64,000 nucleotides of DNA from the IMG/VR virus record IMGVR_UViG_3300044634_004095; one strand, written 5' to 3'. The notes under the pieces are model-generated. The model was not told the origin of the DNA, searched no databases, and was given only the letters and a program-made list of their open reading frames with translations. This DNA is from an uncultured virus (IMG/VR IMGVR_UViG_3300044634_004095). Lineage: Duplodnaviria; Heunggongvirae; Uroviricota; Caudoviricetes. The number at the start of each line of letters is the position of its first letter. Positions within the stretch are counted from its first letter, which is position 1. The position numbers and the translations under genes were made by a program. Below, in pieces: positions 1 to 30,597 of the stretch.

Positions 1-3000
1 AATGTAGACGACTCCACTATTGTAATCTTGATCACTCAATGATATTTCCTCTTCAAATCTACGAACTGGCACCCCGAGTTTCTCTTGCATTTCAAGCTGT
101 TGTTCTGCGGAAATCTCATCATCATCGCGCAGTAAGATGTAAGCAATGTCGTCTTTTGTAACCCCGCTTTTACCATTCCCTGGGTGAACTTGGGCCTCTA
201 TGTAGTCAACTGCTGTTTTAATTTCTCCACCAAATATGTCATCATCTAAGTCTATGTACTGATCAGACATTGCCCTCATTCCAAATCCTGGAGCATTGAA
301 TGATGACGCAGATGCCATTGTCGAAAGTGAGTCAACCTCAGAAACGGTAGATCTAGAATTTACGCTCGGCTTAAGAACTACAAGGAACTGCCCATACCCT
401 AAGCCTATGTCCTCCATCTCTTCACCTATTCCTCCGTAGGTTGCGAAACCGTATATCGGACGCAGGCGAGGCTCCATCGATGGATGATAGCCGAACATCG
501 ATACTTCTTGAGCAGCCCTGTAGCCAGGGTCGTATGCACCATTTGATCTTCCTGCTTCAAATTGAGAAAGTATTCTTCGATCGTCTCCAGTGCCATCAAA
601 AATTTCTTCTAGCGCGTCCATGTCAAGAGCAATGACCACTCTGTCCTCTTTGAATGGACCTCGGCGCATTGTTCCGAATGTTTTAGGAACAAAATCAGAA
701 TCTGTTAGCTGGAAGTAATAATCTGTAAGTCTTCTAGTCTGATTTATCATTTTTTCGATTAGTGACGATACTGTAACTCCCAATTCTTTAGCTTCTCTTT
801 CTGCCCATAGCGTGCGCGTTGCAATAGTTGTTGCACGCTGGAGTAGTCCATTGGCAATGATGTCAGCTTCAAATTCGCGCAAGTCTGAATACTTTCTTTG
901 CAATATTTCAAGCATTTTAATTTTAGATATCAATAACTGGCGCCTGACTTCACCAGTTATATCTGGAGTCCGAACGGAGGCATAAGGGTGTATTTGATTG
1001 TATTTGAAGTAAAATTTAAAATCTTTATTATTCAACAGTTCATCGATTAGTTCACCCATGGATTCGCCTATCTCCGGGTCTATTGTCTCGTTGAGTAGCC
1101 AAGAAAGTGGTCTTCCTTCGTTTTTTGCCACCTCTAAAGAATTTGTTGGTTTTCTGAAATCAGCATCTACTGATTTCTTACCTTCTTCAAGACCTAATCC
1201 AGCAATCACTCTTGCATTTGTATTCTTTATATGACTGTATATTTCACCAGATTTAAATCGGTTACGCCCAGTGTTTTCTCGTTTCCCACTGCCTGAATAC
1301 TCATCGCTACCGCTAGATAGTCTTGCTTCTGGAAGGTCGTATGTTCCCCAGTCAACGTCTCCTGATATGAATTTTCTTTCAATTTCGGCAAACTTGTCTG
1401 ATAGCGCAGAGGGCCCATTGGGAAGTTCATGTATCTGAGTAACAATTGCTTTTCTTTTTTTGCCGAGGGTTACGATCTCGGACTCATTTAGGCACCCCAT
1501 GCCGGTAAATGGGTTGGCTAGAATTTCCTCTATGGGAATATAGGTGAAATATATGTGTGGAACTTCTTCTTCTACTCCGGCCATGCGTAAATCTGCAAAA
1601 TCAAAAGCCGTATTTCGGTTAGTGGACCAAGATGAAATCGGTCTACTTTCAATCGAAGCCTCGAATAAGAGTGGTTCATTAGTTTCTGGAATTTTCGTTA
1701 TTCTTCTAGAATCGTAACCGGATTGTTCTACTGTCATAAGTGATCCACGATAAGCCGGGACATGTGTGATGCCTTTTGACTTATAGTATTCCTGCGTTGA
1801 CTGATACATCGATGAAATAAACTCTTGCAATACTTGCGCTTGAGAAGGGGTCAACTCTGGCGCAGAATCATATTTTTGTGATCCGTTTGAGATGATGTCT
1901 TCTTCTGCCAAGGTACGAAGAAATCCAGGCTTACTTAACGATAAAGCAGAAGATTGAAAAAGATCGGCCGTGGTTGCTGAAGGCTTTACTTGCCATCCTA
2001 CCGCTTCATCCAGAGAGAACATCCCCCTTGCTACATGCTGTATTGCTAAAGACACTGGGTTTTCGTCATTTGCTGATATTGACCATGAACGAATTAGTTC
2101 GGAAACAATTTGTTCCTTTAGTATATTTTCAAAATCAGAACTATCTTTTGAAATAATGTCTTGACCGAAGTAGCTCTTTATGAAAGTTTCTTGGTCAATA
2201 AACCCCGACAAATAATACCTATTTTCAGAAAGCGGGAACGGGGTCCCCTTCAACGGCAGTTCCCCATCGACGAATGCTTCCCAGAATTGATCAGCTTTGA
2301 TTTTTCCGGTTTTCACGTATTGGTAAAAACCTAAATTTAACGCACTTGTGAAGTTTGTATTGTACATGAGTGAACTAAGCTGCTCAAAAAACTTAGGAAA
2401 TTTTTCGTAGTTTTCTACAATCGAATCCATTAACTTAACGTCAACTTCTTCAGGATTGCCAGAAATTGTAGAATAAATTTTTGTCATTGCTTCCGTTTGA
2501 AAGTCAAAATAAAACTTTTTATTTTCCCAGTAGTTTATTGTTTCTAGTTTAGACACAACACTGTAGATCTCTTCGTCTACCCTGTTTCTGTATTCGTCTT
2601 CGCCCATATCTATAATTGGCTGAACAAATATTTCATGCAGCTCTTTTCTTTTTTCTAGGGTCAGATCTGTTACTTCGTCTACTCTTGTTTTCTCATTAAA
2701 TATTTGTCCATCGGTGATATTCAACAAGAATTTGCCTGTTCCGCCATCTTCTACGTCAACCAGTATCTCAACTACTCTCTGAAAAGAGTCACCGTCCGTG
2801 ATGAAGGGGAGTCTATCAAAATCTCTTGGATCATCAGAAAGAAAGTTTTGAATTACTGGCTTAGCTCTTCCTTTTTCAACAAAAGCGTCCACAATTTCAC
2901 GCAATGAAACGTTCATTTGTCGAGAAATGTTTTTAGCTATAAAAGATTTTGCTCGAGACGCTGGACTAACTGCCATATCCATGTCTTGTTGTCTTGTAAT

Positions 3001-6000
3001 TTTATGGATGTCGTCTAGCAAGTCTGAGTTTATGTCCCAAGTCGAAGCAGTAACTTGCCCATTATTTGTTTTTTGTGCTTTTAGCTTAGGAGATGCTCCT
3101 GGCTTGAAGAAAATCTGCCCATTATCGTCTTCGACCATGTATTTTGATTTCTTAGCCTCTTCCCCTGAAGAGAAACTGTCGCTTATTTTTTCGAGGACTA
3201 CGACATCTCGATCCATCATTCTTTTGCTGTATGGATTTTTTATTTGTCGTTTTTCAATCCCTGATACCTTGAACTTCCCTGAAACAATGCCTTCCACAAT
3301 CCCGTAATTTCCACCTTCGGCGCTTGGCTTGCCTCTTGCTGACAATCCTTGCTCGTCGAAAAAAATTCCTCTTGTATCATCGGGGAATTCAAATATAAAC
3401 TTTTCAGGAATTGAACGAATAGCTGACAATTCATCGTACTCATATTTGATGGCGTCATTTATCCCGGAAGCAACAGCTGCTGCTCTAAAATTCAGTTCTT
3501 CTCCAATATTTACTACTGACCCAACATCGGGAGTCAGTCTTGCCACCCTGTATGTCCTGTGGCCGATAGGAGGGGCAGACTCAAGACCATTCCTGATTAT
3601 CTCAGCAGCTCGATAAAGGGCGGCGTCTTCGGGTACATTCTCTAGATTTTCGACCTCACCAGCTAGATGTCGACTAATCTTCCTACTTTCAGCAAAGCTA
3701 CTGCGCCACAAATTGAGAGTATCTCCCAATTCGGTATCACTCGGTACAATGCCAGGATGCCAGTGTGAGCGAATTAAGAAATTGCTCATCCTGTTTCTGT
3801 CGTTCAGCTTGTCAAGGGCATCTGAAGAACTGTCCAACTCTCCGCTTGTCGGCACGTATCTATACTGATTGCCATATCCAGACTCTTTTCTAAAATGCAT
3901 ATTTGGGAATCTTGCGATCATCACACTCATTGGGAATTCGTCTTTGAACCATGCTTCTGGAATAGAGATGCGTTCCGGGCCAGTTCCGGCAGATCTAATT
4001 TGGCTTCGGGCTGAGTCGGGATCTACAATTTCGTTTATGTTCGACAATATCTCGCCACCAGAAAAAAAAGCAGTTTGACCGGACTCGTCAACTGGGGTTG
4101 AATAATCGTTTCTAGATGTTGAAAATCTGTCATTATTTGCAATTCTTAGAATTGCGTTTTCGCTCAATAGGTAAAGAAGCGTATCTTGCTGTAATCGATC
4201 GTCTTCTCCGATTCTGAATATATCTTTTATTTTAGGGTCAGATGTGAAAGCCGTTATACTTTCTAACTTTAATTGCGTGCTTCCAGAGTGCGGTCTTGAA
4301 TCAACTCTTAGATCAAAAGCAATGTCGCGCATTTTTAGATCTATATTTTCCTTTGATCCATCTTCCCCACCGGGGAGTATCGGCGTTACGTATTTTGAGT
4401 TACCGGTCGCTTGTACTCCTGCTTCCCCGAGAGCTTCGTTTACAAGTCTTTGTCGCTCTTTCATAGTTTCGGCAAAAGCTGATTCCCAAACTTGTTGCTG
4501 TTCTGGAGTCCACTCATATTGGAGACCTTCAGGTTTTTCAACCTTAGAGTAGTCGGCTACGGCTGGTAGCTCGATTACGCGATAGGTGCCTGCTGAAAAT
4601 AAAATTCCATCTTCGGGTGGGGGCGTTAAGTAGCTGTCGACGACATACAGGTTCTCTAGAGACCCGGGATTATCCTCGTTTACTTTTTTCATCTGACTTA
4701 CGATTGCATAACTTTTTCCCTGTGCGCTGGGCCTGTACAGATGACCTTGAACAAGGTGATTTAATGAAAAATGGACACTGTGCCTATTCGTCCTTAGTGG
4801 CTCCCCGGTATATGGGTTTATTACGACTTGTTGAGTATCTTGATTTACTACATCGTAATCGCCATTTGGGTAAATTCTTAAATTTCCATCTTTGTCAATT
4901 TGTGGCTTATGAACAGTTTCATGGACCAGGAATAAGTCATCAAATTTTAGTATCCGAGTTTTGGACTCATATTGATCTTTTTCAGTGGTAACCATGATAT
5001 CGCCTGCGCGGTAGTTATTTACCCACCATGCATCGTCTCTATCTTCCGGTCTTACTCCTCCAAGGGAATACCTAGGGCTTGAACTGAAGAAATTTTCTCT
5101 TCTGTCTGTGAATATTTTTTCAGCAACGGCACTCAGTCTTTCAAGTTCTGCTAAGGCATCCCTGTCTCCACGGGCCGCAGCATACAGTAAGGCTGATGTT
5201 CTTGATTCCCGAGAACGGTCTTCATCTACTTGCGCAACTGTGGCCATAAACCAAAGACGAGCGAATTCTCGCCCCTCCTTTGACTTTGGTGAGGTATTGG
5301 AAATGACATATGGGTTCACTGGGAGTCGAAGCACACCTGGGGCATCAATTGAATCTCTTGTGAATGCTATTTGTTTTCCATTTATGTCGTGAACTGGAAC
5401 AAGTGTATCTGTCGTTTCGTTTCTGTCAGGCCTTGCGTATATCTTTCCTTTTACTTCTGCCACTGGATCTTTGGATACAGTTCCTATTCTGTCGATATCG
5501 TTTGCCCCAGAGGAGAGCCGCATGCGTTGTTCTCTAAATGAATTGCGTTGTCTAGTTGAAACCCCAGACCTCTTTGAAGGTCTTCTTAGAACTATCCTAT
5601 CCCGTGGGCCAAGATAAACCCCACCCACTGTTCTGCCGGTAATTTCATCTATTCTTCTATCCGATCCGCTTGCAAAATTTCTTCTTTCCGCGCTGCCTTC
5701 TTCGTATTCGTCATGGGTTATAAAGCGGTCGGATGTATTTGCAATTCTTGCTCGATGATTGTCCGACAATACTGCCCAACTAATAGGGTCGACAATTAAA
5801 TTCCTCAATTTGTCTTCGTCGTCTGTGACTTTCTCTATGTCATGGGAGTTTGAGTTGAAATGTCCCCTGGCAGTGACCATTAATTCAGTTGCGATTTGTC
5901 CGACCTTGAGGTCCTGATGATCATTCGAGCTCGATCCTCCGGTCTCTCCACCATCAAACGAGTTAGTACCGAAAGATAAAAGCAACTGTCTCAACTCTTC

Positions 6001-9000
6001 ATCTACATTTTCAGATGACTCGTTATTTTCAAGTATTGTTGCTCCACGTAATACGAGTGGTTTTTCTGGTTCTGGGACAAACCATGAATCAATAACGAAC
6101 AAGTTTTCAAGAGCTCCTGGATTATCCTCTATAACACTTCTTAAAGGAGTTACGATAATATTGGATTTAGATTTTCTTTCCCTGAATGAATGTCCCCTGG
6201 CTAGGTGATTCAACGTAAAGTGAATGGTTTGTCTGTGATGCTTATATACACCACCATCTTCCGTTGGGATATAACCATAGTCTCCGGCTGGTCTAAGAAG
6301 TACGTTTCCAGCTTCATCTTTTACTATGTCGTATGTTGTTTCATGAACGACATAAAGATCATCTATTGAAAGATTTCCTATACCTTTTTCATCTGCGGTA
6401 GCTTGAAAATACTTTATTTGCGCTGGAGAAAGACGTCCTTCTGTTTGTATTCTTCTTTGTTCTTCTATTAGAAGCTCGCCCTTTTTCGCAAGATCTTCAA
6501 ACTCCAACATCGAATCTGCGTCTCCACGCATTCCAGCATAAAGTAAAGCGTCTACATATGTTGATGCTTGGTCCCCGGAACTTTCGTAACGAGCAGCTCT
6601 TGCCGCTATCCAACGGATGGCCGTGTCGCGCCCCTCTGCCGAAGTTGGCGAAAGGCCACTTATGACGTACGGGTTTAATGGAATAATCTTTATTTCTTTA
6701 TCAGTAATTTGGCTCTTTATTTTTTCAGGAATATGACCAAAATAAATTTTATCGTTCCCTATGGCGTGAACTTCTCCACGCATGCGGACATCTTTACCAT
6801 TTCTGTCCTGATAAACATTAGACAATAACGTTTTTTGAGTCTGTTTATTAAAAGCTCCAGCTGGGTATACTTGAGCTGGGCCTCCTGAAGAAAATCTTAA
6901 ATCTTCGTTTTTGAGTATCTCTCTTCTGTTTGGTCCAAGCATCTCCATTGCAAGAGAGGAAGCTGGCCCGGATCGATCACGACCCTTTGGATTATTAACA
7001 AGCCTAAGTTTTGAAGAGGAGCTTTGATTTGTATTCTGTGGAATCCGACGTTGACGTTCAGCACCAGATGACAAACGCATATCTATGACTTTTCTAATTT
7101 GACTTCTAGCTACGTCGATGCGGTCTCTGGCTGCGCTTCTTAAATTTGTACCAATAGAAGTTCTTTTGATTAACCTATCTCTCTCTTCTATTTCTTTCCA
7201 CGGCGTCTCTCCGTCCCGCAATCCAAGAAATGCACGAGCATCATCTCGTAGTTTTTTTGTAATCCATCTTTCTTGAGCGGTTGGGTCTGGATGGAGAACC
7301 GCTACTGCTCCTTCTGCCAATGCCTCTATCAGGTTTGTGTTCCCGTAACTGTGCGCCGTGCTTGCAAAAGGAAGATTTAACCATTGCTCGTCAAATCCTG
7401 CTCCGTTCGGGTCTTTGGCTAGCGTGCTCTTTTGAATACTCTGTTGATCTATTAATGGTTCGAAACTATAATATTCTTCCGCGACACGTAGACCTCGGTA
7501 GCGTGCCGCTCTTCCCTCAGCGGTGCCGTAGTCTCGAATGTACTGACGACCCGTCGCTTTTAGGTCTCTGTAAGGAAGTGCGGCTGGGTTAGTAGCAAAA
7601 ACCCCTCCCAGCTCAGCCTCAATCATTGCCCGCATATGTATGTAATGAACGAGTTCGTGTTTAAAAACAGCAGATATAGATCGATCCATCACTGTTGTGC
7701 TGCCAATACTGAATTCCGAGGTAAGATCTATTTCTCCCTGAGATGTTCTTCCGGTTTCAATTGCTTCCCACGCAGCAACAATGTTCAGAGTTGGGACAAG
7801 TTGATCCAGCCAGGCTGCAGAAAGCGAATCATCTGTCTGAATGTTTTTTACTATAGGGGGAGACCCGAATGTCTCCATTAGCCATTTAAGCTCAGGACTC
7901 GCATCGAGTGAAGCTTCAACAGCTTTTCTCAAAAGATTTACATTTTGCGGAGAAAAATCAATTTCTGTCTTGCGCGATTTTAGCAATTCAATTATTAGTT
8001 TTCTCATTAATGTTCGTATTTCTTCTGGTGAAGCCCAATTGCTCGGAGGAATTGGAAACAAATCAAAAATAATTTCCATGTATTCATCTTCACTAGAAGG
8101 CACCATTAAGTTTGCAATCTGACTTGATGATAGCCCCTGCAAGAAACCAGGAGTTGATATTCTTAGTTCAACACCCATCTCCGTTATCTGCCCATATCTA
8201 TAATCCATAGATTGATGCCTCTTGAGCTGCTCTAACTCATCGCGACGCAGTGGCTTAAGGAGAGGATCAATCTTTATTATTGGCCTGTCTCTATCTGGTT
8301 TTGCAGGAGGTATTCCGACATCCAGTATTGGTCGGTCATCGTCCCCCGAGGAAAACCTTGCAGTTTCACTTTCAAAATTTATAAATCTTCTCTTAGCTGC
8401 GTCAAATTCTTCACGTGCAGTTTGAAAATTCTTTGTTCTCTCGTCTAGGAAATCTTCTCTTTGGGCCCTGTCTAGAATTCTGTTATCCCAACCGCGACTT
8501 TCTGCCTGATTAATCATCGCGTGCATGACCATTCCGGCAGCAGTTGCATCCTGTTCCGCTGAATGATGCCTATCGAGGCGCACTTCAAGATATTCGGCTA
8601 GAGCGCTTAGTGTAGTAGATGCGACTCTTGTGTCTCCGCGGATGACTGATGGACCATCTTTGTTTTCTTCAGAATATTTTGGAAGAACCATTTGAGCCAT
8701 ATCAAGAGAATCAATGTATCCAGATGGACGCCACATAATCCCGGCCTCCGCGAGAGCATCCTCAAGGACGTTTTTGTCAAATATTGCGTTTTGTACGCCC
8801 ATTATTGCGCCCGGGCCAGCGAACTCAGCGACCATGCGATGAGCGTCCTGAATACTCATCTGCTGTGCAAGCCACTCATCGGTAAGCGGCTCTCCGTCTG
8901 TTCTGTAAAGATTCAACCTTGACCACTCTCTCAATGGTTCGGTCGGATTCATAAACAAATTTAATTTGTCTATAACTTTTCCACCTCTCATCTTCACAAG

Positions 9001-12000
9001 AGCTATTTCTACTGGCTTACCATTGCTCGCACGTTCCCTGAAGCGGTCAAAGTCAATACCTGTAGTTTCGTAATCAATAAAAATTATGTCTCTATTGTTA
9101 AATATTTCTCTTAGCTCGCGCCAAGTTTTTGCTTCACCAAATATGAAGTCAGCCTCACCTATAAACGGTCCGTAACTTGGTTCGCGGGGAAATGACGGCA
9201 TTTTTACTTCACCACTGCTAAGGCGTCGGGGGTTATCGTCTGGATCATAACCAAATTCGAGAAGAGAATTTCCTTCAGTGAAAAGGTGCTTTGCTTTTAC
9301 TCGCTGACTTACTATTCTGTATTTTCCTTTTCCTCCCAGATTGGAGTCTCCGTGAAGTTTTGCGTATGACCGCAATGGGCTAACCCAGTCGCCAGCGTTT
9401 ATTTTTAGATTTTTGTCAATGTGCTTTGCATTCCTAAGCATTTCTATTTCTCGACTAATTTCGTCATAGTATTCGTTTATGTCTGATATATCTGCAGAAA
9501 CATACTTTGGAACTCGGCCATATTGTAAAATATGTGATTTCTGTGTTTCTAGTTCTTTTATTCTCTCATTGGGGAGTAAAGGAACAGCACGATAGACCGT
9601 AACTAGCGCTTCAGGCTTGCCCTTGATTTGCTTTATAATTCTAAGTGCTTCTGGAGCCAACGGGTCGGTACTGGCGTAGAGGGCAGCACCGTTTGGCCCA
9701 TAGACTTCTTCTGGATACATTCCGTCAGCAATATTGTGCATCGGAGCGCCACTGTTCCTATCGGGAGCCTGGTGGAAACCTCTGTAGTCTTCGTCCTTAC
9801 TAAATGGAACATCGGAAGTACCGCTTGAAAATCTGTCAGACCCAAGTTTGCTATCGAAACGCCTATCAGTCACATTAATTAACGCCGAGCGACGAGGCCC
9901 CTTTACGGGACCAGTCCCTCCAGTTGCGGCCTTCCACCATTTGTCGCCATCGTCTGTTGTCGCTCCCGCTGAAATCTCATAAGTTGGCATACTGATGCGT
10001 AATGCGTCAAGGAGGGCCGACCCAATCCCCATCCTTTTAAAATCTTCGCCTACTTCTATCATCGCCACAACAGCAGTACTGTCGATACTTTCGGAATTGT
10101 AATCAATGTATCCTGCTAGCTTCCCACTTTCATCGAAAGCAGCTAAGTATCCGTTGTACTGATCACGACCGGGGGAGTCACCGCCATGAGACAAAGTAAA
10201 CCTTTTGCCCCCAACATTGAATCCGACCGGGTCATCAAACGGTTTATCTTTTCCTAGCCGCTCAATTTCTATCGTTACTTTCTGGCCTGAGGAAAATTTA
10301 TTATCGTGATCCTTAACTGCTGATGAAAGAAATTTTATTGGGCTTATTTCCCCCGATGCTAGCGGAAGTTTGTTTTTAGTTGCAGCGTTCCGTGAGTTCA
10401 TTTCGCTTGTAGACCATTCGTCGACTACTGACGCAGGGAGCCGATCAAGCAATAGCTTTAAGCGGAGATCTTGATTTTTTTGATATCGCTCCTTATCTAT
10501 TACTCTGCGATAGCCAACTTCTATGCCATTTCCGTTATTCAATTCCGAAAAGAAAGTAGATAAAGATTCTTTATTTGCTTTTGACAGCATCTCTTCAGGA
10601 TTCTTAAAGGATGAATAAGTCATTCCGTTTTCAGTGTAGTAACCGCTTAGGAGTTGTTCTCTTTCTGTTTTTGTAAAATATTTTTTTGTTGCGGTGTCGT
10701 TGTTTTCTGCCAAAAGCTGCCTATGCAGCGCCCCGACCATTTTTGATCTAGAGGCGGCCCCATTCCACTCAAAACCGTTCATGCCCCAATAGGTTGCTCC
10801 GTTTGAGGAATAGGCATCTCCAAATGGAGAGTCCTTCACTATGTCGGATCTGCCGGTGAGACTTATTGAATCAACTTCTAGAGCTTTCCATATATTTTCA
10901 GAGTAAGCCATGAAAGAAGTGCTAATCCCTGAATTCCTAAGCTCAGGCTTTACGAAAATTTGGTTTAAATCAACCGAGAGACCGGTATTTGTAATTGATA
11001 ATTTAAAGCTAGCCGTACCAACGTCTGACAATTCTTGAACATTTGTTCCAGCTACATTTTCTTGAGGAAAACTTAATTTTACATCAACATAAACGGGCAA
11101 AGATTCTCCCGATGCAACAACGCTCGCTCCGTAGTCCACGCTGCTTACTTGAGATGATAAAGGCAATTCTTCTTGTGCGAATATGTTTGATCGAGAAACA
11201 TCGATCAACAATTCTGATCCAAGATTGAACCTCTCTCCACTAGAGCTTTCTACTACAACATTATTTCTTAGAGGAATAGAAATATTGTTAAATAATTTAT
11301 TCAGTGATTGCAAAAAGTTGTCTTTTAGGCTGTCGTCATCGGCAAATTCTAAGTATGAAAATCTTTCTGGCTGCTCAATATTCTTGTTTTCTGGAGTAAA
11401 TAATTTTCCAGAACGCCATTGAATCGATGGTAAAACAAAGTTGACAATCATGTCTCTTGTGTCGAAAGCGTTGGTAAGTTTTTCACCATCTAGTTTTTGT
11501 CTTTCGACTTCTGTTTCATAATTGGCACCAGAAGAAAAGGTGTCCGAGCCACCATCGACGGAGCTAATTTCTCTATCTTCAAAGTCTATTGAAGTATTTT
11601 TATCTAAATTATAAAACTCGTGAAGGTTAGAAATTGTATTTAGCAAACCATTTAATGGTCGATTAGCAGGGGTTGCCTCTGCGAATGCTCTACCGTCATC
11701 GCTAAGTGCGTTGCTGTGTTGAAGGTTGAATTCTGGAAAAGCTTCTCTTTGCGTGTAGAACATCTCTGCCGCAATACCGCGCCTGCGGTGACCGCGTCTT
11801 GTCTGGATTTCCAAAACTTCTAGCTGGCCATCATTTGGAGCCCAAACTGACATCCTTGCTATGACTGGTGCGGTTCCTTTTCCCGTAAGGCTCCGAAGTA
11901 CGTCCTGGTCATCGACATCATTTGGACCAATTGGTGATTTCTTTTTATTAAAAGGGTTTTCGCCTTGTTCGTCAAATATTTTTGCAAGAGAATTGCGTTC

Positions 12001-13671
12001 TTTTTCAATGTCTGACTCCAAATAGGATACGACATCTCCATTTTGCGTGACGATTATTCTATATTCAGTATCTTTATTTTTAACTTTTTTTGAAGCGAAT
12101 ATATCTCCATAGTCGTGAAGATTCAGTGGTGACAGTTGCTCCATACCGCTGGAAAACGCACCAACAAGCTCTCTGTCGTTACTTAATCTGCGCTCGTACC
12201 CAATTGTTACGTTTTTCTCCTGAAACAAACTAGTTGCCTGTTCAAAAGCAAGAAGTTCTTCCGCGCTTGAATCTGTTTCAAACACAGAATTACCATCTAC
12301 TCTTCTTTCTTCTATTAGGAGAGATATCCGTTTTCTCTCTTCTTCGCTAAACCAATTTTGCGTTTGGTCGTCAAGTCCATCTTTAATTACGCGAAGAAAA
12401 TCTTGTTTTGCTTTTTCTCCAGACCACGTAAATCCATTTTTTGGCCAGTGCGTTGCCCCAATTCGATTTCCCTCTTTGTCGGACAACCCGCCCGTATATA
12501 TTCTTTTTGCGTCAATCGCATTATATATTTTTTCATTACTTGCATTAAATAAGCTACCTATGCCAAGACCCTGTGATGGCTCGTTTAGAAAGAAAGTATC
12601 GTGGATAACTGTTATTCCAGAGTCTTTTTCTCTAGTATTAAACATTATTGTCCTGGAAGATGAACCAAACTGGATTCGGTCAAGTTCCGGAGTTCCTTCT
12701 GGGAGTGCATAAGCGTTTTCGAGCATTTCTTCTGGCACTCCGGCTTTCGCCAACCGATCCATTGCTTCCTCTGACGGAGCCAACCTCATGCGAAGCTTTA
12801 TATTCATAAATGTTTGTTTTTCGGAATCTTCATCAAAAATTGTTGTATATAGCTGTTCTTCTGCCTGTTCATTAATATCATTTAAATTTATGTCCGCTAG
12901 CTCAATATCCCAGCCCTTATATTTATTACCTGGCCGGACAGAAATGCGAACCGTTTTTCCTAAATTTATTTTTTCACCGTTTTTGGCGGTAACTACAATG
13001 TCTTTTTCCAGTTCTATTTCGCTATTAAAAATTTCCGCGAGCAAATCATGTATTCTTTTTTTTGCTTCCAACCGCTCCGGTGAGTCGGCCAGTTCTTTCG
13101 TGTCTTCGTCAAAAATGTCTTTGATTGTCGTGAATTCATCTTGCTCAACAAGCAAATCACTTCTTAGTAGTTCTTTTAGTTCTTCTATTTTCTGTAATTT
13201 TTCTTGCGTTAATTCGGGCCGGGAATCAACAAGCTCTTGATATGTTGCTCCAGAAGAAAAAGTGGTTGACCTATCTGGAGATTCCTCACCGCCAAAAAGC
13301 TGACTTCCTGACGATGGTCTGGTTTTTTTGGGGGAAAGTTCCGAATCCCTAGTGCTCTGTTTTGGTTTTTTACCCTCGGATGCAGTGCCAACATATATTG
13401 GCTTTGTTGTTCCTTCGTCAGCCCAGCCGTCACCGTCTGGGTCTCTTCTTGAGCCAGTCGGCTTTCTTGTGCCGGGCTTACCTCCGGTGGGTAGGTCTAT
13501 GTCTCCCTGGCTGCGCCCGCCGCGACGACGGCCAAGGCTAGGAATCCCGGAAAGCCTGTTTGAAGCATAGGAAGCAAGACGTCGACCAAGAGCTTTTTCC
13601 TCAAGGTCTGGTTCGCGGCCTTTGCGTGATTCATCAAAGGGGATGAGAAATTCATTTTCTTCACTTGACAT
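1..13671 (-). CDS. Giant polyvalent protein (>=4557 aa, 3' end beyond the window): 4 GNAT, 3 ADP-ribosyltransferase-like, DEDDh exonuclease, zincin peptidase, duplicated unknown domain, DUF3626-like domain
   Basis: ATG at 13671 (MSSEENEFLIPF...). Manual translation found no in-frame stop. The ORF track lists no minus-strand ORF in this frame, consistent with an ORF open to the edge. Motifs read: SQGLGIG, HRRRGIA, LRNSGIS, FKRMGIG, VYRAVP..GDWVS, IDYETTG..HSAEQD, HELVH, AYRG..SSWS..ESEIV, RPIYG..YIEAQVH. Confidence 0.9.
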   Translation of the reverse strand, partial: MSSEENEFLIPFDESRKGREPDLEEKALGRRLASYASNRLSGIPSLGRRRGGRSQGDIDLPTGGKPGTRKPTGSRRDPDGDGWADEGTTKPIYVGTASEGKKPKQSTRDSELSPKKTRPSSGSQLFGGEESPDRSTTFSSGATYQELVDSRPELTQEKLQKIEELKELLRSDLLVEQDEFTTIKDIFDEDTKELADSPERLEAKKRIHDLLAEIFNSEIELEKDIVVTAKNGEKINLGKTVRISVRPGNKYKGWDIELADINLNDINEQAEEQLYTTIFDEDSEKQTFMNIKLRMRLAPSEEAMDRLAKAGVPEEMLENAYALPEGTPELDRIQFGSSSRTIMFNTREKDSGITVIHDTFFLNEPSQGLGIGSLFNASNEKIYNAIDAKRIYTGGLSDKEGNRIGATHWPKNGFTWSGEKAKQDFLRVIKDGLDDQTQNWFSEEERKRISLLIEERRVDGNSVFETDSSAEELLAFEQATSLFQEKNVTIGYERRLSNDRELVGAFSSGMEQLSPLNLHDYGDIFASKKVKNKDTEYRIIVTQNGDVVSYLESDIEKERNSLAKIFDEQGENPFNKKKSPIGPNDVDDQDVLRSLTGKGTAPVIARMSVWAPNDGQLEVLEIQTRRGHRRRGIAAEMFYTQREAFPEFNLQHSNALSDDGRAFAEATPANRPLNGLLNTISNLHEFYNLDKNTSIDFEDREISSVDGGSDTFSSGANYETEVERQKLDGEKLTNAFDTRDMIVNFVLPSIQWRSGKLFTPENKNIEQPERFSYLEFADDDSLKDNFLQSLNKLFNNISIPLRNNVVVESSSGERFNLGSELLIDVSRSNIFAQEELPLSSQVSSVDYGASVVASGESLPVYVDVKLSFPQENVAGTNVQELSDVGTASFKLSITNTGLSVDLNQIFVKPELRNSGISTSFMAYSENIWKALEVDSISLTGRSDIVKDSPFGDAYSSNGATYWGMNGFEWNGAASRSKMVGALHRQLLAENNDTATKKYFTKTEREQLLSGYYTENGMTYSSFKNPEEMLSKANKESLSTFFSELNNGNGIEVGYRRVIDKERYQKNQDLRLKLLLDRLPASVVDEWSTSEMNSRNAATKNKLPLASGEISPIKFLSSAVKDHDNKFSSGQKVTIEIERLGKDKPFDDPVGFNVGGKRFTLSHGGDSPGRDQYNGYLAAFDESGKLAGYIDYNSESIDSTAVVAMIEVGEDFKRMGIGSALLDALRISMPTYEISAGATTDDGDKWWKAATGGTGPVKGPRRSALINVTDRRFDSKLGSDRFSSGTSDVPFSKDEDYRGFHQAPDRNSGAPMHNIADGMYPEEVYGPNGAALYASTDPLAPEALRIIKQIKGKPEALVTVYRAVPLLPNERIKELETQKSHILQYGRVPKYVSADISDINEYYDEISREIEMLRNAKHIDKNLKINAGDWVSPLRSYAKLHGDSNLGGKGKYRIVSQRVKAKHLFTEGNSLLEFGYDPDDNPRRLSSGEVKMPSFPREPSYGPFIGEADFIFGEAKTWRELREIFNNRDIIFIDYETTGIDFDRFRERASNGKPVEIALVKMRGGKVIDKLNLFMNPTEPLREWSRLNLYRTDGEPLTDEWLAQQMSIQDAHRMVAEFAGPGAIMGVQNAIFDKNVLEDALAEAGIMWRPSGYIDSLDMAQMVLPKYSEENKDGPSVIRGDTRVASTTLSALAEYLEVRLDRHHSAEQDATAAGMVMHAMINQAESRGWDNRILDRAQREDFLDERTKNFQTAREEFDAAKRRFINFESETARFSSGDDDRPILDVGIPPAKPDRDRPIIKIDPLLKPLRRDELEQLKRHQSMDYRYGQITEMGVELRISTPGFLQGLSSSQIANLMVPSSEDEYMEIIFDLFPIPPSNWASPEEIRTLMRKLIIELLKSRKTEIDFSPQNVNLLRKAVEASLDASPELKWLMETFGSPPIVKNIQTDDSLSAAWLDQLVPTLNIVAAWEAIETGRTSQGEIDLTSEFSIGSTTVMDRSISAVFKHELVHYIHMRAMIEAELGGVFATNPAALPYRDLKATGRQYIRDYGTAEGRAARYRGLRVAEEYYSFEPLIDQQSIQKSTLAKDPNGAGFDEQWLNLPFASTAHSYGNTNLIEALAEGAVAVLHPDPTAQERWITKKLRDDARAFLGLRDGETPWKEIEERDRLIKRTSIGTNLRSAARDRIDVARSQIRKVIDMRLSSGAERQRRIPQNTNQSSSSKLRLVNNPKGRDRSGPASSLAMEMLGPNRREILKNEDLRFSSGGPAQVYPAGAFNKQTQKTLLSNVYQDRNGKDVRMRGEVHAIGNDKIYFGHIPEKIKSQITDKEIKIIPLNPYVISGLSPTSAEGRDTAIRWIAARAARYESSGDQASTYVDALLYAGMRGDADSMLEFEDLAKKGELLIEEQRRIQTEGRLSPAQIKYFQATADEKGIGNLSIDDLYVVHETTYDIVKDEAGNVLLRPAGDYGYIPTEDGGVYKHHRQTIHFTLNHLARGHSFRERKSKSNIIVTPLRSVIEDNPGALENLFVIDSWFVPEPEKPLVLRGATILENNESSENVDEELRQLLLSFGTNSFDGGETGGSSSNDHQDLKVGQIATELMVTARGHFNSNSHDIEKVTDDEDKLRNLIVDPISWAVLSDNHRARIANTSDRFITHDEYEEGSAERRNFASGSDRRIDEITGRTVGGVYLGPRDRIVLRRPSKRSGVSTRQRNSFREQRMRLSSGANDIDRIGTVSKDPVAEVKGKIYARPDRNETTDTLVPVHDINGKQIAFTRDSIDAPGVLRLPVNPYVISNTSPKSKEGREFARLWFMATVAQVDEDRSRESRTSALLYAAARGDRDALAELERLSAVAEKIFTDRRENFFSSSPRYSLGGVRPEDRDDAWWVNNYRAGDIMVTTEKDQYESKTRILKFDDLFLVHETVHKPQIDKDGNLRIYPNGDYDVVNQDTQQVVINPYTGEPLRTNRHSVHFSLNHLVQGHLYRPSAQGKSYAIVSQMKKVNEDNPGSLENLYVVDSYLTPPPEDGILFSAGTYRVIELPAVADYSKVEKPEGLQYEWTPEQQQVWESAFAETMKERQRLVNEALGEAGVQATGNSKYVTPILPGGEDGSKENIDLKMRDIAFDLRVDSRPHSGSTQLKLESITAFTSDPKIKDIFRIGEDDRLQQDTLLYLLSENAILRIANNDRFSTSRNDYSTPVDESGQTAFFSGGEILSNINEIVDPDSARSQIRSAGTGPERISIPEAWFKDEFPMSVMIARFPNMHFRKESGYGNQYRYVPTSGELDSSSDALDKLNDRNRMSNFLIRSHWHPGIVPSDTELGDTLNLWRSSFAESRKISRHLAGEVENLENVPEDAALYRAAEIIRNGLESAPPIGHRTYRVARLTPDVGSVVNIGEELNFRAAAVASGINDAIKYEYDELSAIRSIPEKFIFEFPDDTRGIFFDEQGLSARGKPSAEGGNYGIVEGIVSGKFKVSGIEKRQIKNPYSKRMMDRDVVVLEKISDSFSSGEEAKKSKYMVEDDNGQIFFKPGASPKLKAQKTNNGQVTASTWDINSDLLDDIHKITRQQDMDMAVSPASRAKSFIAKNISRQMNVSLREIVDAFVEKGRAKPVIQNFLSDDPRDFDRLPFITDGDSFQRVVEILVDVEDGGTGKFLLNITDGQIFNEKTRVDEVTDLTLEKRKELHEIFVQPIIDMGEDEYRNRVDEEIYSVVSKLETINYWENKKFYFDFQTEAMTKIYSTISGNPEEVDVKLMDSIVENYEKFPKFFEQLSSLMYNTNFTSALNLGFYQYVKTGKIKADQFWEAFVDGELPLKGTPFPLSENRYYLSGFIDQETFIKSYFGQDIISKDSSDFENILKEQIVSELIRSWSISANDENPVSLAIQHVARGMFSLDEAVGWQVKPSATTADLFQSSALSLSKPGFLRTLAEEDIISNGSQKYDSAPELTPSQAQVLQEFISSMYQSTQEYYKSKGITHVPAYRGSLMTVEQSGYDSRRITKIPETNEPLLFEASIESRPISSWSTNRNTAFDFADLRMAGVEEEVPHIYFTYIPIEEILANPFTGMGCLNESEIVTLGKKRKAIVTQIHELPNGPSALSDKFAEIERKFISGDVDWGTYDLPEARLSSGSDEYSGSGKRENTGRNRFKSGEIYSHIKNTNARVIAGLGLEEGKKSVDADFRKPTNSLEVAKNEGRPLSWLLNETIDPEIGESMGELIDELLNNKDFKFYFKYNQIHPYASVRTPDITGEVRRQLLISKIKMLEILQRKYSDLREFEADIIANGLLQRATTIATRTLWAEREAKELGVTVSSLIEKMINQTRRLTDYYFQLTDSDFVPKTFGTMRRGPFKEDRVVIALDMDALEEIFDGTGDDRRILSQFEAGRSNGAYDPGYRAAQEVSMFGYHPSMEPRLRPIYGFATYGGIGEEMEDIGLGYGQFLVVLKPSVNSRSTVSEVDSLSTMASASSFNAPGFGMRAMSDQYIDLDDDIFGGEIKTAVDYIEAQVHPGNGKSGVTKDDIAYILLRDDDEISAEQQLEMQEKLGVPVRRFEEEISLSDQDYNSGVVYI

Positions 13672-13714
13672 TTAGAGCAATAATACCATTTGTTGATGGC
13701 TTAAAATGCGGAAA

Positions 13715-14074
13715 CTAAAGCCTTTGGCCACACTTTGTGCATATTTTTGCCCAAGGGTAAAAACGCGTCATATTCATAGGGTGATCACATTCTAAAATAC
13801 GCTTAGCCTCTACGTTTAGCGCATTTCTTATCCACGCTGACAGCGATATCTGCTCATGTGTTGACGCTTCTTTCCATCTATTGCGTTCAGCATCCGTTGT
13901 TCGTATTAGGACCTGCTTGTCGGAAGGATTGCCATTCTCGTTTGGGTTCCCTCGGGCAATCGTCGGTTCAAGGTTTTCAGCAACCTTGTTCATGGCTGCA
14001 ACTATGTTGTTTTCTTCGTCGCTACTCATTCTCTTCCTCGGTCTCGTTGATATCTTCAACAATCTCAGCATCAA
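13715..14074 (-). CDS. Small DNA-binding protein (ribbon-helix-helix-like) with C-terminal Cys/His ribbon; true start may be at MSSDEENN
   Basis: QVLIRTTDAERNRWKEAS...SLSAWIRNALN pattern, plus CDH...CTKC. Confidence 0.5.
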   Translation of the reverse strand: MMLRLLKISTRPRKRMSSDEENNIVAAMNKVAENLEPTIARGNPNENGNPSDKQVLIRTTDAERNRWKEASTHEQISLSAWIRNALNVEAKRILECDHPMNMTRFYPWAKICTKCGQRL

Positions 14075-14654
14075 TTATTTCCGATTCGCTCTCTCCCATG
14101 AGGGCTTTTACAGTTCCTTCAGGCAAAACTCCTGCTATTGCCATTAGTTCTAGAAGTTTTCTTGCCTCTGATTCTGGATCAAACCCGGTAGATGGCTTTA
14201 TAACACCAGGCTGGCCAGCGATTGTCGCTCTAACTTGTTGATTATTATTGTCAACCTGAACATTTACATTTGTCTGCTCCATGCCCATTAGCTTACTTCT
14301 TCTGTCCATGATGGATAGGACTTGCTGAATGGCTTTCATGTCTGGTTCGACTTGAACTTCTGTCCCGTCATCCATGACCACTCGTCGATGCTGTGTCATC
14401 GGCCAAATTGCTTGTTGCAGGTTGTCAAGCCTTTCAAGCTCCAGCCTGAGAACCTCGGGGTAGGCAAGAATTGCCTCTCTGTTCATTTTTTGGAGCTGTC
14501 GCTCAATGGACCTAGAGACGCTAGGGGCAGACATACCAAATCTTCTTGCTATCTCGGTTACAGAAGTTCCAGCTTGTCGCATCTTGAATATGCGAAGATC
14601 ACGTTCGCTTAGGAATTCTTTTGTAGTTATTGGCTTAGCTTTATCGTCACTCAT
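14022..14654 (-). CDS. HTH DNA-binding protein, possibly terminase small subunit-like
   Basis: N-terminal HTH (GTSVTEIARRFGMSAPSVSRSI) followed by a helical LELERLD...IMDRRSKLMG region typical of actinophage HTH/TerS-like proteins. Confidence 0.55.
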   Translation of the reverse strand: MSDDKAKPITTKEFLSERDLRIFKMRQAGTSVTEIARRFGMSAPSVSRSIERQLQKMNREAILAYPEVLRLELERLDNLQQAIWPMTQHRRVVMDDGTEVQVEPDMKAIQQVLSIMDRRSKLMGMEQTNVNVQVDNNNQQVRATIAGQPGVIKPSTGFDPESEARKLLELMAIAGVLPEGTVKALMGESESEIIDAEIVEDINETEEENE

Positions 14655-30093: not shown

Positions 30094-30597
30094 TTATTTA
30101 CCTTCCAGATTACGCATAATCTTCATAGCCATCCACGCTTCTTTTCTTTCAGTTTGTGTCCCAAAAGAATAAGTTCCGCCTACTGACTTTAGCATTTCTC
30201 CGCAGCATGTAGAAGTAGCAGCAAGTTTATCGTCACTATTTGCAAGGAAAAGAAGAGCTCTTGCGTCTTTCGTTTTAATTTTACTGCGAGCTTCTCCGAC
30301 TGAAGTAAGGATTACGGCTTGCTCTAAAGATTTTTCTGGAATTTCTTTTTCTTTTGTTACAAAAGTCTTATACCAAGAACCATTGACAACGTTCTTTGGT
30401 TTATCCCATAGAAAGCGATGAAACCGAGTCGTTCTAAATTTTTTGAGACCAGAAACTTTTGATGTTGTTGATATGAAGTTCACTTTAATCGAAGACCCAT
30501 TTTGTCTTTCTATAATTCCATCTTTTTCTCCAGGGCCAGCGTCTGTTATGTAATACAACTTGTCATTATGAATAGAGCCCACAAGTACAGCCTTCAC
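30094..30597 (-). CDS. Hypothetical protein
   Basis: 167 aa ORF, coupled to the upstream gene. Confidence 0.65.
   Translation of the reverse strand: MKAVLVGSIHNDKLYYITDAGPGEKDGIIERQNGSSIKVNFISTTSKVSGLKKFRTTRFHRFLWDKPKNVVNGSWYKTFVTKEKEIPEKSLEQAVILTSVGEARSKIKTKDARALLFLANSDDKLAATSTCCGEMLKSVGGTYSFGTQTERKEAWMAMKIMRNLEGK

What the first reader, a model, noticed from the sequence alone, without database searches (positions are those of the whole stretch)
1..13671. Uncalled giant ORF (>=4557 aa) carrying about 12 effector modules
The ORF track shows only antisense and off-frame fragments here, but one minus-strand frame from ATG 13671 reads open to the window edge. Module order: GNAT, GNAT, GNAT, GNAT, ART-like, DEDDh exonuclease, zincin, unknown x2, ART-like, ART, DUF3626-like. 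It lies outside the head operon, has its own TGG-TATTAT -10 box, and starts with an N-terminus (EEKALGRRL..., DPDGDGWADEGT) resembling segments of the head-operon giants. Inference: a packaged anti-host or anti-defence arsenal.
Basis: partly seen in the sequence, partly recalled or inferred. Interest (0 to 1): 0.85.

Follow-up and report, generated by a model that had tools for sequence, protein, structure and literature searches.

The report
Leader-tagged giant phage cargo polyprotein
A lake-water phage carries a real 4564-residue gene that strings about a dozen enzyme modules behind a shared address-like leader, with the same short linker motif between modules, so it is probably cut up and delivered into the host as a kit of enzymes.

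Summary
Window 1-13671 (minus strand) is one open frame of 4557 codons. In the 104-kb parent contig it ends 7 codons later, giving 4564 aa. It was "uncalled" only because it runs off the window edge.

It belongs to a family of metagenomic phage giants of 2948-7630 aa. Three features define the family:
- A conserved ~105-aa N-terminal leader. In related phages the same leader sits about 600 aa into the head-operon protein that starts with the S78 prohead protease.
- A linker motif, [R/K]-[L/F]-S-S-G, found 12 times here against 0.3 expected. Across related loci it occurs 195 times in the two polyprotein classes and never in about 109,000 residues of other ORFs.
- Modules that are shuffled between phages exactly at these motifs.

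Module calls:
- Firm: one GNAT and a DEDDh exonuclease.
- Moderate: a DraT-like R-S-ExE ADP-ribosyltransferase (ART), a DUF3626/SopF-like module, an HExxH zincin, and three further GNAT-like modules.
- The two "unknown" modules are paralogues of a widespread unnamed family whose confident model has weak ART-fold matches only.

Best reading (about 0.55): a polyvalent protein loaded into the capsid through its leader and cut at the motif, with the prohead protease favoured as the enzyme. Packaging and cleavage are inferred, not shown. Polyvalent proteins are a known kind and this is a new variant.

The parts
1..13671 (-). Giant ORF, 4557 codons inside the window; the full gene is 4564 aa and ends 24 nt beyond window position 1
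   Evidence: family of relatives
13680..13688 (-). TGGTATTAT extended -10-like element, 8 nt upstream of the ATG with no Shine-Dalgarno sequence; predicts a leaderless mRNA
   Evidence: TATTAT is present upstream of 16 of 16 class-1 starts, 7-9 nt from the ATG. The consensus scan found no -35/-10 pair.
13258..13671 (-). Leader, aa 1-138 (conserved core about aa 1-105, with an invariant PTGGxPGxRxPTG...DxDxDGWxDEGT block), followed by the first FSSG site
   Evidence: The same domain lies about aa 590-625 of S78-led proteins.
12154..13257 (-). Module 2 (aa 139-506): GNAT-like fold, paralogue of module 4
11536..12153 (-). Module 3 (aa 507-712): weak GNAT signal
   Evidence: hhalign against module 5: 39.8%, E 3e-4. 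Acetyltransf_1 in 3 of 5 family members, best E 0.034.
10294..11535 (-). Module 4 (aa 713-1126): GNAT-like, paralogue of module 2
   Evidence: Pfam Acetyltransf_7 only at E 0.27.
9829..10293 (-). Module 5 (aa 1127-1281): GNAT acetyltransferase
   Evidence: Pfam PF00583, E 1.4e-5, 25.8 bits against a cutoff of 20.7; phrog_3810
9220..9828 (-). Module 6 (aa 1282-1484): unknown phage domain; 'ART-like' not shown
   Evidence: phrog_2579, E 1.5e-32. The Atlas gives viral hypothetical clusters of 195-207 aa and only a weak PARP lead at 0.77. No hhalign link to the ART module.
8353..9219 (-). Module 7 (aa 1485-1773): DEDDh 3'-5' exonuclease
   Evidence: Pfam RNase_T, E 5e-13; PolC exonuclease domain in the PDB; invariant D1533, E1535, D1632, H1703, D1708; found in all 14 relatives listed for it
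7072..8352 (-). Module 8 (aa 1774-2200): HExxH zincin-like module (H2005, E2006, H2009, with invariant E2116/E2120 downstream)
   Evidence: Matched in all 14 relatives listed for it. No Pfam family. Only the HExxH helix aligns to MPTase-PolyVal (18.5%).
6892..7071 (-). Piece 9 (aa 2201-2260): 60-aa basic peptide between two sites
5515..6891 (-). Module 10 (aa 2261-2719, including a 53-aa tail piece after FASG 2666): unnamed widespread family with weak ART-superfamily fold matches
4066..5514 (-). Module 11a (aa 2720-3202): paralogue of module 10
   Evidence: hhalign 100%
3172..4065 (-). Module 11b (aa 3203-3500): unknown. It is a separate cassette in relative P0003.
1318..3171 (-). Module 12 (aa 3501-4118): unknown N-terminal half plus a C-terminal R-S-ExE ADP-ribosyltransferase-like domain (R3975, S4013-S4014, E4063, E4065)
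1..1317 (-). Module 13 (aa 4119-4564): DUF3626/SopF-family-like
   Evidence: Pfam E 1.7e-4, 21.2 bits, below the cutoff of 27. Homologous modules in L037 (28.6 bits) and L045 (30.9 bits) pass it. phrog_8314.
40019..49642 (-). 3207-aa head-operon polyprotein: S78 prohead protease (aa 31-174), degenerate leader (aa 531-578), then ArdC-N plus MPTase, then a UvrD-type helicase; FSSG sites at aa 720, 1094 and 2577
30594..38168 (-). 2524-aa head-operon giant with three FSSG sites (aa 1316, 1456, 2015) and one HEFAH
13715..14029 (-). 104-aa gene directly upstream, syntenic in relatives; weak ribbon-helix-helix signal and a C-terminal CxxC

Best explanation
The ORF is a real gene for a leader-tagged, motif-punctuated polyvalent polyprotein.

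Shown:
- One 4564-aa frame.
- A conserved ~105-aa leader.
- 12 strict [R/K]-[L/F]-S-S-G linkers that delimit autonomous, shuffled modules.
- The same leader and the same linker motif in the head-operon protein that begins with the S78 prohead protease.

Inferred, in order:
1. The leader acts like a capsid-targeting propeptide and brings the protein into the procapsid.
2. Inside the procapsid the protein is cut at the linker motif into about 13-15 pieces. The trans-acting S78 prohead protease is favoured over the embedded zincins as the enzyme.
3. [quoted passage not shown] They include GNAT-type acyltransferases, a DEDDh exonuclease, a zincin, a DraT-like and a SopF-like ADP-ribosyltransferase, and two copies of an unnamed domain that may have an ART fold.
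4. In the host they modify host or defence components before phage genes are expressed.

The gene appears to be transcribed from its own conserved extended -10 element as a leaderless mRNA.
For: Gene and family. The ORF is intact here and in separate assemblies. Seven strong relatives of 3213-4703 aa turned up, and giants of up to 7630 aa are in IMG/VR.

Motif. There are 12 sites against 0.30 expected and 9-17 per relative against about 1 expected. Of 186 SSG in 17 polyproteins, 155 follow L or F and 121 have R or K at -2. [RK][LF]SSG occurs 105 times in class-1 ORFs, 90 times in S78-led ORFs and 0 times in all other ORFs of the loci, which include 14 portal, 5 MCP and 9 terminase ORFs.

Module borders. 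Motif-bounded segments align end to end with motif-bounded segments at other positions in other giants. A 93%-identical relative differs by one cassette swapped at the motifs. Both AlphaFold models have low-confidence termini at the motif.

Leader. It sits at the N-terminus of the class-1 giants. It also sits at about aa 590-625 of proteins built as Peptidase_S78 + ArdC-N + MPTase + UvrD. In both classes the first site comes directly after it. The phage's own S78-led protein keeps a degenerate copy (E 5e-5).

Protease. The S78 domain is 76-100% identical across the 80 loci kept, with invariant His, Ser and acidic blocks. All 29 full-length S78-led giants use [LF]SSG, 3-14 sites each. The three HExxH modules of this phage are not detectably related to one another, so a single trans-acting enzyme is the more economical reading.

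Precedent. T4 internal proteins and Alt, and SPN3US ejection proteins, have N-terminal targeting propeptides removed by the prohead protease, and the SPN3US protease has a C-terminal targeting propeptide (PMC7411985, passages read). Polyvalent proteins as a class are described in PMC5512222 (passages read).

It is not independent proof.
Against: - The gene lies among replication genes (primase, WhiB, SSB) behind a host-type -10 element and two putative regulators, not in the late operon.
- The MCP has a Delta-domain-like N-terminus but no [LF]SSG, and no portal or small head protein carries the motif. The canonical prohead-protease substrate therefore lacks the site.
- Each of the three motif-bearing giants of this phage has its own HExxH, as self-processing would require.
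- In this phage the head-operon protein has only a degenerate leader.
- Among complete S78-led proteins, the full leader and a separate class-1 giant were never seen on the same contig. This fits a single-copy anchor but is unexplained.
- No protein-level, RNA or virion evidence exists.
Confidence: 0.55

Rival explanations
1. Cytoplasmic self-processing polyprotein. The gene is expressed early from its host-type leaderless promoter. The embedded zincin (segment 8) cuts the chain at the motif in the infected cell and releases a set of enzymes in equal amounts. Nothing is packaged, and the leader has another role, for example calcium binding or regulating the protease.
For: - The gene sits among replication genes, with a conserved -10 element and regulators upstream.
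- The segment 8 zincin is matched in all 14 relatives listed for it.
- Every motif-bearing giant of this phage has an HExxH.
- Iyer et al. predicted that zincins process polyvalent proteins (PMC5512222).
- The MCP lacks the motif.
Against: - The same leader lies directly behind the prohead protease in head-operon proteins of related phages.
- Three unrelated zincin modules would all have to recognise one motif.
- The tape-measure ORF carries one site but no HExxH, although a single site could be chance.
Confidence: 0.25
2. Uncleaved giant multidomain protein. The motif is only a conserved flexible joint, or a recombination-friendly junction, between domains, and the protein works as a single chain.
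For: - N4 virion RNA polymerase and some plasmid polyvalent proteins are transferred unprocessed (PMC5512222).
- Cassette swaps occur at the motif.
Against: - A flexible joint does not need an invariant S-S-G with L/F at -1 and R/K at -2.
- A second lineage uses a different but equally strict motif, R-G-F-A-S-x-S, which looks like enzyme-substrate specificity.
- Pieces of 53-60 aa between two sites have no obvious role as domains.
Confidence: 0.12
3. 'Trojan horse' toxin. The ART modules are aimed at eukaryotic grazers that eat infected cells, as was proposed for VIP2-type ARTs of freshwater actinophages.
For: Kavagutti et al. report ART genes in 24 freshwater phages and propose this role (PMC6802176, passages read). 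The habitat label of the holding runs is lake water.
Against: - The ART here is nearest to DraT, not VIP2.
- It is one module among nucleases, acyltransferases and a zincin, behind a head-linked leader.
- No translocation (B) component was seen.
- This reading does not exclude the best explanation.
Confidence: 0.05
4. Not a gene: a chance open frame or an assembly artefact.
For: None found. The parent contig has homopolymer-rich ends and a truncated tape-measure gene, which shows only that the assembly is incomplete.
Against: - 4564 sense codons.
- Pfam domains in frame.
- Conserved relatives down to about 30% identity.
- Identical ORFs in separate assemblies.
Confidence: 0.01

Closest known systems
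Polyvalent proteins of phages and conjugative elements (Iyer, Burroughs, Anand, de Souza, Aravind 2017; PMC5512222)
   Same: One polypeptide combines many conflict-type enzymatic domains (GNAT, ART, zincin, nuclease), is encoded by a phage, is proposed to be delivered with the DNA, and is proposed to be cut into units.
   Different: - No MuF, portal or MPTase-PolyVal domain in this ORF.
- It lies outside the late operon.
- Modules are separated by a strict, lineage-specific linker motif and preceded by a dedicated leader shared with the S78 protease protein.
- I found neither feature in that paper: 'linker' has 0 occurrences, and I read its 'cleav', 'processed' and 'prohead' passages.
T4 internal proteins and Alt with a capsid-targeting sequence; SPN3US and phiKZ-type ejection proteins cleaved by the prohead protease
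   Same: - An N-terminal targeting propeptide followed by a protease site.
- An ART among the cargo.
- SPN3US propeptides are 111-130 aa, like the ~105-138-aa leader here.
- The SPN3US protease carries its targeting piece at its C-terminal end, like the leader's position in the S78-led proteins (PMC7411985).
   Different: - Those are separate small or medium proteins, each with its own propeptide. Here one leader serves a chain of about 12 modules.
- The protease is S78 (HK97-type), not T4 gp21-type.
- The motif is [R/K][L/F]SSG, not the T4-like motif.
- The phiKZ comparison is recalled, not read.
HK97 gp4 protease C-terminal capsid-targeting tail
   Same: An S78-family protease is carried into the procapsid by a segment C-terminal to the catalytic domain, and that segment can carry foreign cargo.
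   Different: Here the segment is a conserved domain of about 100 aa with a DxDxDG-type block, and it is reused at the N-terminus of a separate giant gene.
ArdC (ArdC-N plus MPTase) anti-restriction protein
   Same: The neighbouring 3207-aa head polyprotein contains a complete ArdC-like unit flanked by two FSSG sites (aa 720 and 1094).
   Different: ArdC is a free-standing plasmid protein transferred by conjugation. Here it is one cassette of a protease-led head polyprotein.

Membership tests
Polyvalent proteins (Iyer et al. 2017) | Two to 15 or more distinct effector-type domains in one polypeptide of a phage or conjugative element | tested here: met
   GNAT, DEDDh exonuclease, HExxH module, R-S-ExE ART-like module and DUF3626-like module in one 4564-aa phage ORF
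Polyvalent proteins (Iyer et al. 2017) | Link to virion packaging: late-gene context or fusion to MuF, portal or another head protein | tested here: inconclusive
   The ORF is not in the late operon and has no MuF or portal domain. Its leader is shared with S78-protease-led head proteins.
Polyvalent proteins (Iyer et al. 2017) | MPTase-PolyVal zincin (PF18818) as the processing domain | tested here: not met
   There is no PF18818 hit in this ORF at E <= 1, and segment 8 shares only the HExxH helix with it (18.5%). PF18818 is present in the neighbouring 3207-aa protein. This domain is frequent in the class but not obligatory.
Prohead-protease-processed, CTS-bearing ejection proteins (T4 IP/Alt, SPN3US type) | N-terminal targeting propeptide followed by a conserved cleavage motif | tested here: met
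   At sequence level only: a conserved leader with the first [LF]SSG at about aa 107-141 in 14 of the 15 class-1 proteins examined and at aa 59 in the N-terminally truncated P0007
Prohead-protease-processed, CTS-bearing ejection proteins (T4 IP/Alt, SPN3US type) | Presence in virions, cleavage by the prohead protease, ejection into the host | not testable with these tools
GNAT acetyltransferases (Pfam clan; PF00583) | Score above the Pfam gathering cutoff | tested here: met
DEDDh exonucleases (RNase_T, PF00929) | Pfam cutoff and the D-E-D-D-h catalytic residues | tested here: met
   50.4 bits against 24; invariant D1533, E1535, D1632, H1703, D1708 across 8 family members
R-S-E clade ADP-ribosyltransferases (DraT / C3 / VIP2 type) | Arg, Ser-x-Ser-type and Glu-x-Glu catalytic motifs in order, plus family-level sequence similarity | tested here: inconclusive
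   R3975, S4013-S4014 and E4063-x-E4065 are invariant in 8 and in 9 sequences. The Atlas puts a DRAT cluster at 0.94, with 13 of 30 hits. Pfam DRAT appears only at E 0.058 in 1 of 9 members, with no PF03496. The PDB profile search found nothing.
DUF3626 (SopF family) | Score above the Pfam gathering cutoff (27 bits) | tested here: inconclusive
   The window's own module scores 21.2 bits, below the cutoff. Homologous modules in L037 (28.6) and L045 (30.9) pass it and align to it at E 4e-66 and 1.5e-36. That SopF is an ART is recalled. The SopF-DUF3626 link comes from a search listing only.
ART superfamily fold (modules 10 and 11a) | Structural similarity of the core to solved ARTs | tested here: inconclusive
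Peptidase_S78 (context: 3207-aa neighbour) | Pfam cutoff and conserved catalytic blocks | tested here: met
   42 bits against 21; invariant WGHNW, EWSIGY and ELYEVSPV..GAN blocks in 6 of 6 sequences. Assigning these blocks to the catalytic residues is recalled.

The most novel reading that the evidence does not exclude
These abundant lake phages use a general cargo-loading code. One conserved leader addresses a chain to the procapsid. A short site motif, specific to each lineage, tells the prohead protease where to cut: [R/K][L/F]SSG in this lineage and R-G-F-A-S-x-S in another. Any enzyme cassette inserted between two sites is then packaged and injected. That would make these giants (up to 7630 aa) a dsDNA-phage counterpart of RNA-virus polyproteins, and a natural plug-and-play system for delivering proteins into bacteria. 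The unnamed module 10 family (445 clusters) would be a new branch of the ART superfamily.
Probability: 0.35. Interest if true: 0.85.

Novelty: new variant of a known kind. Interest (0 to 1): 0.7.

Why it matters
Several things would follow if cleavage and packaging are confirmed:
- The family would show how a phage can load and deliver a dozen or more enzymes with a single address label and a simple site code.
- It would explain why the modules are shuffled so freely between related phages.
- It would give a direct way to read the "first-minute" arsenal of uncultured lake phages from sequence alone, by cutting at the motif.
- It would identify a widespread unnamed enzyme family (module 10; 445 clusters at 50% identity) and several ART-type modules as candidate anti-host or anti-defence effectors.
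- The leader and motif could serve as tools for packaging foreign proteins into capsids.

Tried and rejected
- **BLASTP, leader against the two head giants:** not significant. A profile later found aa 531-578 of the 3207-aa protein only.
- **GenBank phage collection:** no relative of the exonuclease-plus-zincin stretch beyond generic exonuclease hits (6 records, at most 28% identity). The best terminase match is 44%.
- **PDB sequence and profile searches:** the whole protein finds only the PolC exonuclease. Profiles of segments 12, 8, 13 and 10 find nothing significant.
- **Foldseek against the PDB:** no match at E <= 0.001 for either model. BFVD gave only uncharacterised phage proteins.
- **Complex prediction, leader with MCP:** tool unavailable, nothing folded.
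- **hhalign between modules:** no link of segments 6, 11b or 13 to the ART module, and none of segment 2 to segment 5.
- **Pfam on 46 short homologues of module 10:** 45 with no family and 1 weak baeRF hit.
- **Sequencing runs:** no RNA holder listed. 20 lake-water DNA runs hold the stretch.
- **WhiB scan of bacterial genomes:** one marginal 30-residue hit, uninformative for the host.
- **Co-variation test of protease and motif in the GFAS lineage:** the three contigs found are 10-15% complete and hold no S78 gene.
- **Consensus promoter and terminator scan upstream:** 0 sites. The scan needs a -35 box, and the element has none.
- **Notes of this scan:** none for this genome and none by words.
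- **Literature searches for prior description of the leader or motif:** searches found none. Supplementary files of Iyer et al. (an ftp site) were not seen and may list related architectures.
Full report
**1. Observation**

The minus-strand frame from ATG 13671 is open to window position 1, giving 4557 codons. The window is bases 34617-98616 of a single 104,099-bp virus contig. In that contig the ORF runs 4564 aa and stops 24 nt past the window edge.

With open-ended ORFs switched off, only plus-strand ORFs of at most 150 aa are listed here. So "uncalled" is an effect of the window edge. Identical 4564-aa ORFs occur in other IMG/VR contigs.

**2. Context**

PHROG and Pfam scans identify the surrounding genes:
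- On the minus strand, in order: portal, a 3207-aa protein, a 579-aa protein, a 2524-aa protein, several small proteins, and an MCP of 461 aa.
- On the plus strand: terminase, Erf, an exonuclease, RuvC and ParB-like genes.
- At the contig end: tail tube, tail assembly chaperone and a truncated 901-aa ORF that is the tape-measure protein.

The giant ORF is not in this head operon. It follows WhiB, primase, a GerE/LuxR-type HTH protein (which PHROGs labels "Rnase E") and a 104-aa protein with a weak ribbon-helix-helix signal. The WhiB gene suggests an actinobacterial host. The 20 public runs that hold the stretch are labelled lake-water metagenomes. No cultured phage is close: the best terminase match is 44%.

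**3. The linker motif**

[FL]SSG occurs 12 times against 0.30 expected, and FASG, FFSG and LASG variants occur as well. In the whole genome the motif is otherwise found only in four places:
- the 3207-aa protein (3 sites);
- the 2524-aa protein (3 sites);
- the tape-measure ORF (1 site);
- one antisense ORF inside the giant.

Relatives found in the 5.8-billion-protein collection (7 strong hits of 3213-4703 aa, plus one marginal Nocardia toxin) carry 9-17 sites each against about 1 expected. The Nocardia toxin has none.

Pooling 17 polyproteins gives the consensus [S/G/T]-x-[R/K]-[L/F]-S-S-G-[R/A/K]. Of 186 SSG, 155 follow L or F and 121 have R or K at -2.

Across the related loci [RK][LF]SSG occurs:
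- 105 times in class-1 ORFs (58,797 aa);
- 90 times in S78-led ORFs (38,447 aa);
- 0 times in all other ORFs (about 109,000 aa), which include portal, MCP, terminase and the 579-aa protein's homologues.

**4. The motif marks module borders**

- Each motif-bounded piece of this protein aligns from its first to its last residue with motif-bounded pieces that lie at quite different positions in other giants. Module 3 matches L037 aa 3354-3539. Module 6 matches L037 110-302 and L045 6811-6946. The exonuclease matches L019 128-416 and L010 2462-2753.
- The 93%-identical relative P0002 matches this protein over aa 1-116 and from aa 504 onward. In between it has a 135-aa GNAT-like cassette where this phage has the 368-aa module 2.
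- Pfam domains fall inside pieces and never across sites.
- Both AlphaFold models have their low-confidence residues at the motif-bearing termini.

**5. The leader**

The first ~105 aa are the best-conserved part of the family, with an invariant block at aa 61-95. An IMG/VR scan with the family alignment returned 66 loci. In them the leader is found in one of two places:
- at the N-terminus of giants of 2948-7630 aa (class 1);
- at about aa 590-625 of proteins of roughly 2950-3320 aa built as Peptidase_S78, leader, ArdC-N, MPTase-PolyVal, UvrD helicase (class 2).

Class 2 has the same architecture as this phage's own 3207-aa protein. In both classes the first site follows the leader directly.

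A leader profile built from 23 distinct sequences hits the 3207-aa protein at aa 531-578 (E 5e-5, first half of the leader only). It hits nothing else in the genome better than E 0.32. BLASTP alone was not significant.

A second scan, with the S78 domain, found at least 573 relatives. The 80 loci kept are 76-100% identical to the query. One search examined 68 S78-led ORFs, of which 32 are complete:
- 29 are giants with 3-14 [LF]SSG sites, and 3 are short with none.
- 10 carry the strict leader motif.
- None of the 4 whose contig also holds a class-1 giant carries it, as in this phage.

**6. Which enzyme cuts**

Neither candidate was tested biochemically.

For the S78 prohead protease:
- It is nearly invariant across lineages that share the motif.
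- It is the only protease common to all three motif-bearing giants.
- The three HExxH modules are not detectably related to each other. These are HELVH in this ORF, HEMTH in the MPTase of the 3207-aa protein, and HEFAH in the 2524-aa protein.
- Cutting must come after leader-dependent loading if the leader is an address. This step is inference.
- T4 and SPN3US provide the precedent.

Against it:
- The MCP has a helical, Delta-domain-like N-terminus but no site, and no other head protein has one.
- Every motif-bearing giant has an HExxH.
- Iyer et al. proposed zincin autoprocessing for polyvalent proteins.

I put S78 at roughly 0.45-0.5, a zincin at about 0.3, and the rest on other causes or no cleavage.

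**7. Modules (aa ranges as in 'parts')**

Firm:
- Module 5 is a GNAT.
- Module 7 is a DEDDh exonuclease with all catalytic residues invariant.

Moderate:
- Module 12, C-terminal half, is an R-S-ExE ART nearest to DraT.
- Module 13 is DUF3626/SopF-like. It is below the Pfam cutoff itself, but homologous modules pass it.
- Module 8 is an HExxH zincin with a downstream invariant Glu pair and belongs to no Pfam family.
- Module 3 is a weak GNAT.

Unknown:
- Modules 6 and 11b.
- The N-terminal half of module 12.
- The 60-aa and 53-aa pieces.

- 445 clusters at E <= 0.001 and 160 at E <= 1e-10.
- Members range from 160 to 6526 aa.
- 45 of 46 short members have no Pfam family.

**8. Promoter**

TGGTATTAT ends 8 nt before the ATG, and there is no Shine-Dalgarno sequence. 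TATTAT is present upstream of all 16 class-1 starts examined (14 distinct sequences). The spacing is 8 nt in 13, 7 nt in 1 and 9 nt in 2, and 13 of the 16 have the TGn extension. The rest of the intergenic DNA is not conserved.

This geometry predicts a leaderless mRNA. That leaderless mRNAs are common in Actinobacteria is recalled. Only four such TATTAT- or TATAAT-type elements occur in the genome, all on the minus strand of the replication and metabolism arm. The consensus scan finds nothing because there is no -35 box. The function of the element is untested.

**9. Comparison with what is known, and novelty**

The object is a polyvalent protein in the sense of Iyer et al. 2017. Its likely loading and processing logic is that of the T4 and SPN3US ejection proteins.

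What I did not find described is the combination of these features:
- one leader serving a chain of modules;
- a strict, polyprotein-exclusive linker motif shared by three giants of one phage;
- cassette exchange at the motif;
- the same leader placed behind the S78 protease in related phages.

This rests on searches and passages read.

Verdict: a real feature, a new variant of a known kind, interest 0.7. Packaging and cleavage remain inferences.

Noticed in passing
proteins P0050, P0059, P0063, P0074; locus L150:429-11552: A second lineage of giants (2900-3700 aa) that carries the module 10 domain has no [LF]SSG. Instead it has 5-12 copies of R-G-F-A-S-x-S, and in three of the four the first copy is at aa 80-89, after an N-terminus with a similar layout (…KALGSNLG…FDPNAYDGDGDG…). 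The leader profile is not significant on them (E 0.11-0.19). In L150 a TACAAT lies 6 nt before the ATG.
   Followed up: partly
loci L084, L085, L101, L109 compared with L104, L105, L125-L131, L144, L145: The strict DxDxDGW leader is complementary in distribution. S78-led head giants on contigs that also hold a class-1 giant lack it (4 of 4). The 10 that have it are on contigs, up to 154 kb, where no class-1 giant was found.
   Followed up: partly
window 14022-14654 (-) and 13715-14029 (-): The two genes directly upstream look like DNA-binding regulators. The first is a GerE/LuxR-type HTH (25.9 bits against a cutoff of 23.5) that PHROGs labels 'Rnase E'. The second is a 104-aa protein with weak NikA-like/DUF6290 ribbon-helix-helix hits and a C-terminal CxxC. 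The small gene is syntenic upstream of class-1 giants in other loci.
   Followed up: partly
L072:2896-5600 (genome 101395-104099, outside the window): The truncated 901-aa ORF after the tail tube and chaperone genes, the tape-measure protein, carries one FSSG at aa 647. This could be chance (about 0.06 expected) or a processing site.
   Followed up: no
L045:7163-30055: A class-1 giant of 7630 aa with 19 strict sites. It includes NUDIX, DEDDh exonuclease and DUF3626 modules and is the largest member seen.
   Followed up: partly
L024:9998-19027 and L032:2895-13724: Class-1 giants in these loci carry long pentapeptide-repeat modules (Pfam E 2e-65 and 2.5e-59). L024 also has a firm GNAT module and L032 an Lcl_C-like piece. 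This shows how varied the cargo is.
   Followed up: no
window 40019-49642 (-), aa 720-1094: A complete ArdC-like unit (ArdC-N plus MPTase-PolyVal; phrog_7245 'anti-restriction protein', E 4e-60) is flanked exactly by two FSSG sites inside the protease-led head polyprotein.
   Followed up: partly
genome contig ends (G000:C1 bases 1-60) and window 20511, 27981, 33147, 48785: The contig starts with homopolymer-rich sequence (C and G runs) and ends inside the tape-measure gene, so the assembly is probably incomplete.
   Followed up: no
loci L093, L103, L142: Some relatives encode the same S78 protease as a short stand-alone protein (282-548 aa) with no linker motif, instead of at the head of a ~3000-aa polyprotein.
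   Followed up: no
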